Below, piece after piece: positions 39,901-48,900 of a stretch of DNA of 64,000 bases; the first letter of the stretch is position 1, and every line of letters begins with the position of its first letter. The stretch covers positions 59,148,001 to 59,212,000 of the forward strand of contig OZ024748.1 of NCBI GenBank assembly GCA_964016885.1. The letters run 5' to 3'. The position numbers and the translations under genes are program-made. Under the pieces are notes generated by a model. The model made no database searches. It was given only the letters and a program-made list of their open reading frames with translations, and was not told where the DNA came from. The stretch is from Eledone cirrhosa (Eukaryota).

Positions 39901-42900
39901 GGTAATGGAGTAATTATATATTGTGTTATTCACTTTCTAATTAAATAGCTCTGTTCTATACATAGAGCACTCGATTTTCCTTTGCTTTTTCTTCGGAAAT
40001 ACTTAACATATATATATTTATTTATTTATTTTACCTCTCTCCTCTACGCAACCCACAAAAACAACAGAAGAAATAATAAGAAATAAGATAGATTGAGGGG
40101 ACGGGCGGGTTGGAATTAGAAAAAATGTCTTTAGATAAAAATAACAGGTCCATTCATGTTGACATCTCTTGCAAAACTATTGATATATATATATATATAT
40201 ATATAATATTCCCTTTTTTCTCTTTTTTCTAAATAAAAGATTCATTGAACAAAAGATGTTAATCGAAGTTGAAAGATTCGTCCAACGACAATATCCACAC
40301 CACGAAAGCCAGTGTCCGCACCACGAAAGTCAGTATCCGCACCACGAAAGCCAGTGTCCACACCACGAAAGCCAGTATCCACACCACGAAAGCCAGTGTC
40401 CGCACCACGAAAGTCAGTATCCGCACCACGAAAGCCAGTGTCCGCATCACGAAAGTCAGTATCCGCACCACGAAAGCCAGTGTCCGCACCACGAAAGTCA
40501 GTATCCGCACCACGAAAGCCAGTGTCCGCACCACGAAAGTCAATGCCCGCACCACGAAAGTCAATGCCCGCACCACCAGAATCAGTATTCACACTACCAA
40601 ACAACAGATTCCGGAACGACACGAAGCAATGGTTGTCCACATGAAGCGGGAAAGAAGTCGTTATTGGAGGACGGTTTACTCTGCCAGTTATTACAAGAAA
40701 ACAAACTTGATAAACAAGAAATAACTACCATCATCAAAGACATCATCGCCTCTTCAGTTTTCACAGTAAATATCTTAAATTTTATTTTATTTTATTTTAT
40801 TTTATTTTATTTTATTTTATTTTATTTTATTTTATTTTATTTTATTTTATTTTATTTTATTTTATTTTATTTTATTTTATTTTATTTTATTTTATTTTAT
40901 TTTATTTTATTTTATGTTTGTCTTGATTAGGCCGAAAGATTGGTAATATCGGTAGATTAGTAATATCGATAAATTGGTATTATCGATAAATTGGTAATAT
41001 CAGTAGATTAGTAATATCGATAAATTGGTAATATCGATAGGTTTGTAATATCGATAAATTGGTGTTATCGATAGATTGGTAATATCGATAAATTGGTAAT
41101 GTCTGTAGATTGGTAATATCGGTAGATTGGTAATATCAATAGATTGGTAATATCGATAAATTGGTAATATCGATAGGTTTGTAATATTGATAGGTTGGTA
41201 ATATCGATAGGTTGGTAGTATCGATAGATTAACAATATCAATAAGTTGGTAATATAGATAAGTTAGTAATATTGATAGATTGGTAATATCGATAGGTTGG
41301 TAATATCGGACAAAATACTTTGTGGTATTTAGTTACGTCTGTTTACATTCTGAGTTCAAATCCCGCTGAGGTCAACTTTGTCTTTCATCCTTCTGAGGTC
41401 GATACAATAAAGTACCAGCTAAATATTGGGGTCTATATCATAGACTTTCCCCATCCCCCAAATTGTTGTTCTTGTGCCAATATTAGAAAGAAATATTTTC
41501 ATCTTAATCAACATTCTTTGTGAAGGGGCGTGGTTTAGTGGTTATAGAAATAAATTTGCAATCGTGAGTTGCAAGTTCAATTCCCGGACCGAAACAAGAT
41601 ACTTTATTTCACGTTGTTCTTTCTGCCAGGAGTTGCGACCGGTAGATAGTAAGTACCGGTCGCTCTCCGGCAGGTTTTTTGGTCGTGCCCTTGGCAGTGG
41701 AGACTTCTGGTGTCCTTGGCCCTAGGGCTACCTCCCTACTCACCACCATAGGTGCCGAGCTGGCCAACCGCAGTTGTGAGCCTCGCGAGATGAAATGGCG
41801 CATCTCCCATACCATCCTCCGGGGAAACGCCTCCTCAATTCTGTCCGCCGGGGCTGTGAGGCAGCCACATATGGGACCACATTTGCTCACAATACAGAGA
41901 GATGGGGAGGACGAGAGAGGTGGAGGCGATCGTAGCTGGAGTTCTATAGATGCTAATGAAGAACAAACGTTAACTGATTATTTTGATTTCGTTTTTATTA
42001 CGTATTATCAATGCCAAAACCAATAGAAACATTGTTTCCTTGGTCCAATTTGATGAGTTACACCCCACGCGGTAATCAAGCGAGGTCTGGGATCTCGTCG
42101 ATCGTTAAAAAAAAGAAAACCGTTCTATATTAAGACGCTAAATTAGTAGAATCGTTAAGAATTAATTACCTTCAGATTTGCTCCGGCCCACGTTCAAATC
42201 CCGCCCTGATTTAGTCAATCACATCGACCACAATAGGAACTTTTTTTTTATCTCTGGTACTTGCGTCTCTCTCTCCCTTCTTTTTCTTTCCCTTTCTCTC
42301 TATCCCTCCTCTCTTTCTCTCTCCCTTCTTTCCCTCTCTTTCTCTAACTACCTCTCCTCTCTTTCTCTCTCCACCTCTCCTCTCTTTCTCTTTCCATTCT
42401 CTCCCTCTCCGTGTGACAGATGTGTGACAGCTACTATGTGGTCGTTCGATTTGCTAGAAATAACAGACCCATATCCTATTTATAGTACTAAACGTGATAG
42501 CAACAACAACAATAACAACAAAAAAACAACAACAATAGCGGCAACAACAACTAGAACAGGAACAATATCAACACTGCAACAATAGCAACAATAACATTGG
42601 CTATACAGCAACAACAGCATCAATAGCAACAACAACAAATATTGTTCTTGATTGTGTCAGCTAAAGGTGTTTGACCTCACTCTACCTCACTCTATGTTTA
42701 AATGTCAGTGGACAGTGGTGGTGGTGGTGGTGGTGGTAGTAGTGGTGCTAGTTGTGATGGTGTTGGTGGTAGTAGTGGTGGTGATGGTAGTGGTAGTGGT
42801 GGTTGTGGTAGTGGTAGTGGTGGTGGTTACAGTAGTTGTAGTAGTAGTGGTGGTGGTAGTAGTAGTGACGGTAGTAGTAGTAGTAGTAGTAGTAGTAGTA

Positions 42901-45900: not shown

Positions 45901-48900
45901 AAGTAGAAATAATTACTAACTACATTGTCCAATATATTTATCTCATTTAAGATGATATTGTGTGATTTGAGAGGTCTGGAAATTATTTCTGAAAAGATCG
46001 AAAAATATCTTCCTCTTAATATCCCTCTCTCATATATATATATATATATATATATATATAGTAATAATAATAATTGTTTCTACTTTAGGCACAAGGCCAG
46101 CAATTACACAGTACATTACTGGCACTTTATTTTATCGACCCCGTAAGGATGAAAAACAAAGTTAACCTCGGCAGGATTTGAACTCAGACTGTAAAAGGAC
46201 GTAACTATGCTAGAAAGCATGGCGTCCGACTCTCTACCGATACTGCCAATTCCCCGCCCTTATATAGTAATAATAATAATAATAAATGTGAAGACTAAAA
46301 TCCAAAATCCAAAGAGGGCTCGATAAGGATAAATATATATCAAATATATAAGAACCGTAGAGCAAATATTTATTAAAATAACAGATTAAAGTTTAAACAA
46401 AGAATCGGTGCTTTCACCCTTAACGGGATCATCTGAAACTATGTTAGTTTCAGATGATCCCGTTAAGGCTGAAAGCACCGATTCTTTGCTTAAACTTTAA
46501 TCTGTCATTTTAATAAATATATATATATATATATATAGGAACAAGTATGACCCCGGCGGCAGAGCTCAAGCCGTTTCAACGGCTATTTCTGGACTAAATG
46601 CCGTCGGGGTCATACTTGTTCCTATTACCCACTCTACTACCCTAAGTATTGAGTACTTTGGTGCGTTATGGTCCATCTGGTTCCTTACCACAATTCCTTC
46701 GATATATATATATATATATATATATATATATATATATATATATATATTAGGATTGGTGCTCTGAAATAGCGATGTACACATGAATGTATGTATAGTATAT
46801 TTTACAATATACCGTATGTTTAATTAAAAACATTTTGAAGACCTTGCGCTATCATTTTAAAGTAGTGACTATGTCACTTACTTCATTTTTCGGCAAAGAA
46901 GGGATTATTACTGGAATTCTATAAGAATCCAGCCTCTATAATTTTCGGCAAAGGCAGGGAGTACGTTGCTCTGAGGAACACCAACAGTGTGAAACAATCT
47001 GTCAGCTTCTCTCCCTTCTTTGCCGAAAAATGAAGTAAGTGACATAGTCACTACTTTAAAATGATAGCGCAAGGTCTTCAAAATGTTTTTAATTAAGCAT
47101 ACGGTATATTGCCAAATATACTATACATACATTCATATATATATAATTGGTGTGGGAGGCTTAAAGCGTCCGTAAGCGGTATGCCGTTTGAGCACTCGAT
47201 GCTCTTACAGAGCAGAGTTTAATATCACATAAGAAACGGAGAATCAGTGGTGCGACGAATAAGATTTATTAGACATATTACAATCGTTTCTCTGGCGACC
47301 AGCTCGAGGCACGATCGATGCAATGATGAAACCTGACTCTGAAATCTCAAGATCCTCAGATATGTCTCGATTCTAGTTTGGAAACTCTGTTTCGTAGAAT
47401 CGAGACATATCTGAGGATCTTACGATTTCAGAGTCAGGTTTGATCATTGCATCGATCGTGCCTCGAGCTGGTCGCCAGAGAAACGATTGTAATATGTCTA
47501 ATAATTCTTATTCGTCGCACCACTGATTCTCCGTTTCTCATGTGATATATATATATATATATATATATATATATATATATATATATATATATATATATGG
47601 TGTTATACTTTCTGTTATTAATGTCTTTGTATTTTTCTTTGTTTTCCAGTTAAGAAGTTTATTATCATTTATCTTGTACGCATTAACGCAACACCCTGAA
47701 GCCCAAGAAAGATTACGTGAAGAAATCCGAAGAGTCATATTAAATGAAGATGCTAACGAAATCACACAAAATACCTTTGCAAAGATGCCCTATTTAAAAG
47801 CATTTGTGAAAGAAACATTAAGGTTTGCATTTCAAATAATATGCAGTTAACGTTTCAACATACACACATATCAATCACTCTCTCTCTCTCTCTCTATATA
47901 TATATATATATATATATATATATATATATATATATATATATATATATATATATATATATATATATATATAGTATTAAGGATACTATTTATGGTTATGTAT
48001 GTAATAAAACCTTTAATGGTAATATATTATTTATACAAACCTTAAATAGTGAAAGATAGTCATTAATTACTATCCTATTACCAGTAAGATAAATAGCTCA
48101 ATGTAATAACATCAGTTGTTTTACAGAGCAGTTATGTAGAGATTACAATAATCAAAGTTCAGTTTAAGTCATTTATTTGCTTACAATTGTTTCCTCCAAA
48201 CCGAGGTTTGGATTCTTCGGAGCAACTATTTACTGATCTATAACATACTTGACCTCCTTTTCAACCCAAGAGACATATAAGACATATGCGCATATTGATC
48301 AACAGTGGGGTGACATTCATCAAATGATATAGCATGGCAATTTACATATAAAGGTTACAGGATAAAAATAAAAATAAAAATAAAAATAAAAACAAAAATG
48401 ATAATAAAGATAAACATGAAGCGTTGGCAGTCTATGAAGATAAAGCAAGAGGAAAGTTTAGAGTAGTCAGTGTATGAAACAATCTCACGTGTAGCATGCA
48501 CGTATAAATAAGACACGCGTGCATGCTACACGTGAGATTGTTTCATACACTGACTACTCTAAACTTTCCTCTTGCTTTATCTTCATAGACTGCCAACGCT
48601 TCATGTTTATCTTTATTTTCATTTTTGTTTTTATTTTTATTTTTATTTTTATTTTTATTTTTATTTTTATTTTTATTTTTATTTTTATTTTTATTTTTAT
48701 TTTTATTTTTATTTTTATTTTTATTTTTATTTTTATTTTTATTTTTATTTTTATTTTTATCCTGTAACCTTTATATGTAAATTGCCATGCTATATCATTT
48801 GATGAATGTCACCCCACTGTTGATCAATATGCGCATATGTCTTATATGTCTCTTGGGTTGAAAAGGAGGTCAAGTATGTTATAGATCAGTAAATAGTTGC

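What the first reader, a model, noticed from the sequence alone, without database searches (positions are those of the whole stretch)
40720..47670. Non-canonical I-helix: AGxDTT is replaced by SSVFTL
Seen: the exon 5/6 junction reads [13 protein letters not shown]. Established: mitochondrial P450s typically have AGx(D/E)TT here, and the acid-alcohol pair delivers protons for O2 activation. Here the Thr is kept, but the acid is Phe and A-G is S-S. PERW is also changed to PNRW, while ExxR and the heme Cys are intact. Inference: atypical chemistry (substrate-assisted, isomerase or peroxide-driven) or a non-catalytic heme-binding role.
Basis: partly seen in the sequence, partly recalled or inferred. 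Interest (0 to 1): 0.7.

Follow-up and report, generated by a model that had tools for sequence, protein, structure and literature searches.

The report
Octopus P450 lost its catalytic acid
This octopus gene encodes an intact mitochondrial cytochrome P450 in which the usual proton-delivering aspartate is replaced by phenylalanine in every close relative found, and it likely still works as an ordinary oxygen-using hydroxylase, because a tick moulting-hormone enzyme carries the same swap and is active.

Summary
Observation confirmed. A 9-exon, all GT-AG, open 654-aa mitochondrial-clan P450 reads [13 protein letters not shown] across intron 5 (40765|47650). All 10 orthologues found carry SSVFTLRS: four named octopods and six unnamed proteins from transcript-sized contigs, 50-57% identical where measured. 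The motif is as conserved as the heme loop (12 of 13 columns), so it is neither a splice artefact nor decay. Gastropod and bivalve orthologues keep [AG]GVDTT; the change sits on a long cephalopod stem that also fixed polar residues at pocket positions.

The 'non-catalytic / peroxide / isomerase' reading is weakened. The heme-propionate ligands, axial Cys, Thr and adrenodoxin-docking basic residues are all kept. The same Phe-Thr pair arose independently in chelicerate CYP314A1/Shade (AU p=1.8e-7), and the tick enzyme with GGVFT is a demonstrated ecdysone 20-hydroxylase. PNRW is trivial: distant orthologues have PERW and human CYP11A1 has PTRW.

Best reading: an adrenodoxin-driven monooxygenase with an acid-independent proton relay and a new, probably polar substrate (unknown). 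Side finding: this species has inserted an in-frame (Q[CY]PHHES)13 array into the G-H loop. New variant of a known kind; moderate interest.

The parts
30687..30921 (+). Exon 1: start Met, Arg/Ser/Thr-rich acid-free N-terminus (mitochondrial targeting peptide-like), PGP motif
   Evidence: GT donor, phase 1; first 36 aa have 4 R/K and 0 D/E; matches orthologue N-termini
33425..33650 (+). Exon 2: beta-1, B helix, B-C region with propionate ligand R131 (33580-33582) and the NNKYNNG signature shared with gastropod orthologues
37777..37967 (+). Exon 3: C helix WxxxR (W159, R163), D and E helices
39107..39308 (+). Exon 4: F and G helices; cephalopod-fixed N252 (39208-39210) where gastropod and bivalve orthologues have L/M
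40240..40765 (+). Exon 5: end of G helix, expanded G-H loop, H helix, first half of I helix ending ...[10 protein letters not shown]
40289..40603 (+). In-frame 21-bp tandem array, 13 units Q[CY]PHHES plus 2 degenerate units, in the G-H loop; absent from all 10 orthologues
   Evidence: 5 of 6 variable sites silent in the gene frame, p=0.0055
40751..40765 (+). S456 S457 V458 F459 T460: non-canonical oxygen-binding-groove motif; F459 (40760-40762) at the acid site, T460 (40763-40765) the conserved alcohol
40766..47649 (+). Intron 5 (6884 nt, GT-AG, phase 0), microsatellite- and repeat-rich, no hidden P450 exon
47650..47822 (+). Exon 6: L461 R462 S463, rest of I helix, J and K helices with adrenodoxin-docking K510/K514 and ExxR (ETLR)
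   Evidence: (Pfam p450 E=7e-17)
50370..50448 (+). Exon 7: SRS5 with propionate ligand R528
54830..55036 (+). Exon 8: cephalopod-fixed K548, meander PNRW (54902-54913), heme loop [10 protein letters not shown] with axial C597 (54986-54988), R601
59129..59254 (+). Exon 9: SRS6 with cephalopod-fixed Q634 and H636; stop TAA

Best explanation
The gene is an intact cephalopod mitochondrial-clan cytochrome P450 that has lost the I-helix acid and likely still acts as an adrenodoxin-fed O2 monooxygenase on a new, probably polar substrate. Shown: the 9-exon frame, the motif, its fixation in all orthologues, canonical [AG]GVDTT in the gastropod/bivalve sister group, and retention of the Cys, the Thr, five propionate ligands and three basic docking residues. 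Inferred mechanism: adrenodoxin gives two electrons as usual and Thr460 still stabilises the hydroperoxo intermediate. The protons once routed by the Asp would instead come through a water chain held by polar residues fixed on the same branch (Ser456/Ser457 in the groove, Asn252 on helix F, Gln634/His636 in SRS6), and/or from a hydroxyl or acid group of the substrate. The substrate is unknown. A hydroxylated or anionic sterol or lipid is the best guess, from clan membership and a fixed Lys548 at the position of CYP11A1 Gln377.
For: (1) 10 of 10 orthologues share [21 protein letters not shown] is invariant at 12 of 13 columns against 46% overall; only 12 of 376 windows reach this, the others being the heme loop and K helix. 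(2) R131, W159, R163, R528, R595, C597, E515/R518, K510, K514 and R601 are all present, as in molluscan orthologues and Shade (their roles are recalled). (3) The AlphaFold model of the O. bimaculoides orthologue (pLDDT 81, continuous I helix 342-373) matches CYP24A1 and CYP11A1 best (Foldseek E=2e-27; VIA Z=40, rmsd 2.6 A over 458 residues). (4) Precedent in the same clan: chelicerate CYP314A1/Shade reads GG[VIL]FT. P0204 is the O. moubata OmShd clone, the only stored protein matching both paper primers tested, and it converted ecdysone to 20-hydroxyecdysone in S2 cells (PMC4411005 passages). Insect Shade has H, Y, K, Q or N at this site, and bovine CYP11A1 chain 3mzs has GGVNTT. (5) Phe-Thr is convergent: the cephalopod clade is sister to gastropod/bivalve orthologues (SH-aLRT 99, stem 0.93 changes per site, motif columns removed), and a joint Phe-Thr clade is rejected (p-AU 1.8e-7). 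(6) 47 of 380 columns are fixed in cephalopods and absent from 7 molluscan orthologues; 23 of them lie in substrate-recognition regions (p=6e-4), and 16 of 40 with the I helix excluded (p=0.008).
Against: No activity, spectrum or expression data exist for this protein. In enzymes that depend on the acid, removing it is crippling: aromatase D309N loses 95-98% of activity (PMC9366932 passages). The cephalopod motif departs further than Shade: Gly to Ser at the groove (5 of 198 other domains), Thr+1 to Leu, and Arg at +2 (1 of 198). The Shade precedent therefore covers only the Phe. Shade keeps hydrophobic residues at the N252/K548/Q634 positions, so the proposed polar relay is not shared and is untested. 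SRS enrichment drops to p=0.058 under a stricter definition, and the SRS limits were set by hand after seeing the alignments. Residue placement rests on sequence alignment to solved structures; no coordinates were available. The OmShd assay was in cells with a small background peak and no kinetics.
Confidence: 0.68

Rival explanations
1. Non-standard heme chemistry: the remodelled groove serves a reaction that needs no acid-delivered proton, such as desaturation, C-C cleavage through the ferric-peroxo anion, isomerisation of a peroxide substrate, or a peroxide shunt.
For: Seven of the I-helix positions 350-362 (orthologue numbering) changed and were fixed together. The stem branch is long, 0.93. 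Natural P450s with a rebuilt acid-alcohol pair can be peroxygenases (CYP255 Gln-Glu, CYP152; PMC11842817 passages). Slower protonation would favour peroxo chemistry (established knowledge).
Against: Those peroxygenases place an acid or amide at the distal site; here the site is Phe-Thr. Docking lysines and arginine for adrenodoxin are kept. The Thr, which CYP74-type isomerases lose (recalled), is kept. Phe-Thr Shade is a plain hydroxylase.
Confidence: 0.18
2. Non-catalytic heme or sterol binder, sensor or carrier that keeps the P450 fold.
For: Bulky Phe/Leu/Arg around the Thr and loss of the groove Gly. This species tolerates a 101-aa His/Cys insertion. CYP20, an orphan, has a degenerate I helix (PMC8110760 passages).
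Against: The Thr and the redox-partner surface are conserved across 50-57% identity, which a pure binder would not need. The insertion lies in a loop predicted disordered (pLDDT<50 at 303-323). An active enzyme with Phe-Thr exists.
Confidence: 0.08
3. Artefact or decay: a wrong splice junction, or a pseudogene under relaxed selection (whole lineage, or only this species' repeat-expanded copy).
For: The exon 5 donor is weak in a generic matrix (0.12). This copy carries a unique repeat expansion. There is no cDNA from this species.
Against: Other true donors of this gene score as low (-1.26, 0.07). There is no alternative in-frame acceptor and no hidden exon. Six orthologues from 1.8-3.1 kb contigs read through the junction. 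The frame is open over 9 exons, and the window protein has a short terminal branch (0.059).
Confidence: 0.04

Closest known systems
Chelicerate CYP314A1 / Shade (e.g. Ornithodoros moubata OmShd, UniRef A0A0G4CRE2; Pardosa pseudoannulata CYP314A1)
   Same: Mitochondrial clan; Phe-Thr at the acid-alcohol positions; Asp four residues before the groove; intact docking and heme residues
   Different: Separate clade, convergent; keeps G-G/A-G in the groove and hydrophobic F-helix, beta-1 and SRS6 residues; known substrate ecdysone
Unnamed pan-molluscan mitochondrial P450 orthogroup (Patella XP_050410435, Lottia ESO97831, Pomacea XP_025086041, Babylonia XP_076450255, Mizuhopecten OWF37350, Potamilus KAK3583387)
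   Same: Sister group (SH-aLRT 99; FastTree 0.98); NNKYN[ND]G signature seen in Patella and Pomacea; 31-35% identity for those two
   Different: All keep [AG]GVDTT; none has the polar N252/K548/Q634 set; no function known; database names (12a5-like, 27C1-like, 302a1-like) are similarity labels
Vertebrate CYP24A1 and CYP11A1 (PDB 3k9v, 3n9y, 3mzs)
   Same: Closest solved folds (Z 38-40); same docking and heme ligands; PTRW in human CYP11A1; Asn instead of Asp in the bovine chain 3mzs
   Different: 22-26% identity; acid (or Asn) kept; hydrophobic residues at the positions of N252 and Q634
P450 peroxygenases (CYP255 SyoA/GcoA, CYP152)
   Same: Natural replacement of the acid-alcohol pair
   Different: They put Gln-Glu, or an Arg-bound substrate carboxylate, at the distal site and lose the Thr; here the Thr is kept and the neighbour is Phe
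Human CYP2D6
   Same: Hydrophobic Val308 before Thr309 in an active monooxygenase (residue identities seen in a docking table, PMC11154920; their equivalence to the acid-alcohol pair is recalled)
   Different: Microsomal clan 2, POR-driven, unrelated substrates

Membership tests
Cytochrome P450 superfamily | Heme loop FxxGxRxCxG with axial Cys | tested here: met
   [11 protein letters not shown]597 at 54986-54988
Cytochrome P450 superfamily | K-helix ExxR and meander PxR(W/F) | tested here: met
   ETLR and PNRW; Pfam p450 on exon 6 E=7e-17
Cytochrome P450 superfamily | P450 fold | tested here: met
   Model of the 86%-identical orthologue P0002, not of the window protein itself: Z=40, rmsd 2.6 A to 3k9v
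Cytochrome P450 superfamily | 450-nm CO difference spectrum | not testable with these tools
   needs protein
Mitochondrial clan | Closest relatives and folds are mitochondrial-clan P450s | tested here: met
   Top PDB matches CYP24A1, CYP11A1, CYP11B; nested among molluscan proteins annotated as mitochondrial P450s; no non-mitochondrial outgroup in the tree
Mitochondrial clan | Amphipathic acid-free targeting peptide, no signal-anchor helix | tested here: inconclusive
   Composition only: 4 R/K, 0 D/E, 8 S/T in the first 36 aa; no targeting predictor run
Mitochondrial clan | Basic K-helix and heme-loop residues for adrenodoxin binding | tested here: met
   K510, K514, R601 present; role recalled, binding not tested
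Canonical acid-alcohol monooxygenases ([AG]Gx[DE]T[TS]) | Asp/Glu before the Thr | tested here: not met
   Phe459
Canonical acid-alcohol monooxygenases ([AG]Gx[DE]T[TS]) | Conserved Thr | tested here: met
   Thr460
CYP314 / Shade | Monophyly with CYP314A1 sequences | tested here: not met
   Separate clades; union with the Phe-Thr Shade sequences rejected, p-AU 1.8e-7
CYP314 / Shade | Ecdysone 20-hydroxylase activity | not testable with these tools
   needs assay
P450 peroxygenases (CYP152, CYP255, CYP177-type) | Distal acid-base residue (Glu, Asp or Arg) replacing the acid-alcohol pair | tested here: not met
   Positions hold Phe-Thr; R462 is two residues past the Thr, predicted off the heme face (helix geometry, inferred); definition from PMC11842817 passages
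CYP12, CYP27C1 or CYP302 (database labels) | Orthology to the named family | tested here: inconclusive
   Proteins annotated CYP12-like and CYP302a1 fall in other clades; no vertebrate CYP27 was in the tree; identity to any named family is far below the 40% naming rule (rule recalled)

The most novel reading that the evidence does not exclude
On the cephalopod stem a conserved molluscan mitochondrial P450 was rebuilt into a new enzyme with a rewired proton relay (Asp lost; Ser-Ser, F-helix Asn and SRS6 Gln/His gained) that makes a cephalopod-specific sterol-derived signal. With chelicerate Shade it forms a natural convergent pair showing two ways to activate O2 without the 'essential' acid. 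In this species it also carries a translated His/Cys-Pro array that binds metal or heme and regulates it.
Probability: 0.15. Interest if true: 0.75.

Novelty: new variant of a known kind. Interest (0 to 1): 0.42.

Why it matters
The acid of the acid-alcohol pair is taught as central to O2 activation. This window, with its relatives, shows Asp replaced by Phe and then held fixed twice independently in the mitochondrial clan, once in an enzyme of proven activity. That gives a ready natural experiment on acid-free proton delivery: swap Phe and Asp in tick Shade, in the cephalopod enzyme and in its limpet orthologue. It also flags a fast-remodelled, then strongly conserved, cephalopod enzyme as a candidate in molluscan sterol signalling, where the enzymes are largely unknown (PMC12350143 and bioRxiv 10.1101/340984 passages). 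No link to the optic gland was shown here. The protein is already in databases under generic names. The motif itself was not found described in the searches run, which cover only open-access full text.

Tried and rejected
Hidden or alternative exon restoring AGxDT: none in six frames, no alternative in-frame acceptor. A look-alike last exon at about 56246-56326 was rejected because it has no in-frame AG acceptor; the true exon 9 is 59129-59254 and matches orthologues. PNRW as a functional signal: rejected. Common origin of Phe-Thr with Shade: rejected. Second P450 copy in the window: none; all fetched P450s hit only this gene's exons. The ESM Atlas search returned only generic P450 clusters and no structure. 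Pfam hits to Peptidase_M9_N, DUF3671, Pex24p and Coa1 on single exons are at or below their cut-offs and come from low-complexity or intron sequence. No P450-adrenodoxin complex was predicted, as no cephalopod adrenodoxin was in hand. No protein named as Nautilus, squid or cuttlefish turned up, so the timing of the change and the taxa of the six unnamed orthologues remain open. One of 182 fetched proteins was dropped before all counts and trees because it carried a vertebrate-type I-helix signature. Trees used 298 of 338 domains and a hand-picked 54 proteins. Literature searches for a prior description gave 1, 1, 14 and 0 papers. Of these, the cnidarian CYPome paper and the tick paper were read in passages and the rest seen as listings only; none of what was read describes this gene. 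Supplements were not opened.
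Full report
Gene model. The window is AT-rich, microsatellite-rich animal DNA. Nine + strand exons (30687-30921, 33425-33650, 37777-37967, 39107-39308, 40240-40765, 47650-47822, 50370-50448, 54830-55036, 59129-59254), all GT-AG with compatible phases, give an open 654-aa frame. It is 86% identical to Octopus bimaculoides XP_014788703 and 82% to the Argonauta hians protein. The source is therefore an octopod (inference; species not determined). No second P450 lies in the window.

The observation. Exon 5 ends TCT TCA GTT TTC ACA|gt and exon 6 begins ag|TTA AGA AGT, giving [13 protein letters not shown]. 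No alternative in-frame acceptor and no hidden AGxDT exon exist. Alignment of the orthologue to CYP11A1 and CYP24A1 chains has no gap through the I helix, so F459 is the acid position and T460 the alcohol. All 10 orthologues fetched carry SSVFTLRS. Four are named octopod proteins. Six are unnamed and come from contigs of 1.8-3.1 kb that encode 393-559 aa; since the gene spans 28.6 kb here, these are most likely spliced transcripts (inference). The three unnamed cluster representatives are 50-57% identical to the window protein. Across six representative sequences the 13-column motif window is invariant at 12 columns against 46% overall (binomial p=7e-4, columns treated as independent); only 12 of 376 windows reach that, and the other 11 are heme-loop and K-helix windows. 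The new motif is thus under strong constraint. PNRW is confined to the octopods; the six distant orthologues have PERW and human CYP11A1 has PTRW.

Origin. A search of 1.84 billion representatives and cluster look-ups gave limpet, snail, scallop and mussel proteins as nearest kin. With the motif columns removed, the six cephalopod-type rows form one clade (SH-aLRT 100) on a stem of 0.93 changes per site, sister to seven rows with [AG]GVDTT (SH-aLRT 99; six named gastropods or bivalves, one unnamed; quick IQ-TREE, LG+G4, 54 hand-picked proteins, midpoint root). FastTree on 298 domains agrees. A long stem calls for caution, but the shared NNKYN[ND]G signature in Patella and Pomacea supports the grouping. 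Of 380 columns, 47 are fixed in the cephalopod rows and absent from all seven sister rows; 23 lie in hand-defined substrate-recognition regions (p=6e-4). Without the I helix the figure is 16 of 40 (p=0.008), or 7 of 16 (p=0.058) if the sister column must itself be conserved. Notable polar gains are N252 (aligns with CYP11A1 F202 and CYP24A1 M246), K548 (CYP11A1 Q377), Q634 (CYP11A1 I461, CYP24A1 I500), H636, K451 and R462. The alignments are; that these positions line the pocket is recalled.

What is kept. R131, W159, R163, R528, R595 (propionates), C597, E515/R518, T460, D452 and the basic K510, K514, R601 are present. An AlphaFold model of the O. bimaculoides orthologue (32-sequence alignment, pLDDT 81, pTM 0.83) has an unbroken I helix and a disordered G-H loop, and is closest to CYP24A1 and CYP11A1. 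The window protein itself was not folded.

Precedent. Among 198 other domains, 165 have D/E at the acid site and 3 have Phe. A search with one of the three showed them to be chelicerate CYP314A1/Shade. After adding those hits, 33 of 312 domains have Phe-Thr, a count inflated by that targeted search; spiders, ticks, mites and horseshoe crabs read GG[VIL]FT or AGIFT, while insect Shade has H, Y, K, Q or N. P0204 (Ornithodoros moubata, FIAGGVFTATN) is the only stored protein matching both OmShd primers tested. PMC4411005 (abstract and passages of methods, results and discussion) reports that OmShd in S2 cells converts ecdysone to 20-hydroxyecdysone, with a small background peak in controls, and that knock-down disturbs moulting; it notes motif variation without naming this residue in the passages seen. 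Forcing the cephalopod and chelicerate Phe-Thr sequences into one clade costs 136 log-likelihood units (p-AU 1.8e-7), so the change is convergent. The bovine CYP11A1 chain 3mzs has Asn at this site, and CYP2D6 has Val308-Thr309 (table in PMC11154920; equivalence recalled). Against complacency: the acid matters in enzymes built around it, as aromatase D309N loses 95-98% of activity (PMC9366932 passages), and the cephalopod groove (S-S, L, R) departs further from consensus than Shade does.

Mechanism. Most likely (0.68) this is an adrenodoxin-driven monooxygenase in which Thr460 keeps its role and protons arrive through a rebuilt polar or water network or from the substrate. The catalytic steps are inferred; nothing was assayed. 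Unusual chemistry (0.18) would explain the concerted groove change, but known peroxygenases put an acid or amide where this protein has Phe-Thr (PMC11842817 passages), and the docking surface is intact. A non-catalytic binder (0.08) does not explain conservation of the Thr and docking residues. Artefact or decay (0.04) is largely excluded. The substrate is unknown. Octopus optic glands up-regulate cholesterol-metabolising enzymes including a 'CYP27a' (bioRxiv 10.1101/340984 passages), but I could not tie that transcript to this gene. Two reviews of molluscan endocrinology (passages) did not mention it in the passages seen.

Side finding. Exon 5 holds 13 in-register 21-bp units encoding Q[CY]PHHES plus two degenerate units (40289-40603), adding about 100 aa with 29 His and 8 Cys to the G-H loop. 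Octopod orthologues have one such unit and a second Cys-Pro; the distant orthologues have none. Five of six variable sites among the units are silent in the gene's frame (hypergeometric p=0.0055; 0 and 1 of 6 in the other two frames), which favours translation. A cryptic donor at 40329 with a weak acceptor at 40608 could remove 279 nt in frame, so RNA evidence is needed. Cys-Pro-His-His resembles heme-regulatory motifs (recalled, untested).

Verdict. The feature is real, conserved and lineage-specific; it is a new variant of a known kind. The searches run (open-access full text only) found no description of this motif. Interest 0.42.

Noticed in passing
window 40289-40603 (+): In-frame (Q[CY]PHHES)13 array in the G-H loop, 29 His and 8 Cys, unique to this species among 11 sequences; variation between units is mostly silent (p=0.0055), suggesting it is translated. 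Possible metal or heme binding is untested.
   Followed up: partly
window 40329 and 40608 (+): Cryptic donor AAA|GTCAGT (repeated in four units) and a weak acceptor could excise 279 nt of the array in frame; the acceptor lacks a T-rich tract.
   Followed up: partly
P0120, P0184-P0216 (chelicerate CYP314A1/Shade): Chelicerate Shade has Phe at the acid position almost throughout, and insect Shade has H/Y/K/Q/N: an essential steroid hydroxylase that has dispensed with the conserved acid.
   Followed up: yes
P0014, P0020, P0021, P0027, P0029 (Hymenoptera); P0025, P0026 (Branchiostoma); P0023, P0068, P0074 (P0074 named CYP44-like): Other mitochondrial-clan lineages lacking the acid: LGVQA[TM], GG[MV]QSS and DGLSTT.
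   Followed up: no
window 56246-56326 (+): Short open stretch loosely resembling a P450 last exon but without an in-frame AG acceptor, lying after a long TA repeat; chance or relic.
   Followed up: partly
window e.g. 41350-41430, 43820-43895, 45460-45520, 46116-46175, 53804-53920, 61591-61707: Many copies, on both strands, of a short interspersed element with a tRNA-like gagttcaaatccc box; SINE-like (label recalled).
   Followed up: no
window 46750-47140, 47200-47545, 48090-48980: Long inverted-repeat pairs in introns 5 and 6, seen as near-identical translations on opposite strands; MITE-like or fold-back elements.
   Followed up: no
window 40933-41308: 17-bp tandem repeat, 22 copies, at the start of intron 5, after a 27-copy ATTTT run.
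   Followed up: no
P0007 (Octopus vulgaris CAI9735170): Its N-terminal 98 residues do not match the other octopod orthologues; probably a mis-predicted first exon.
   Followed up: no
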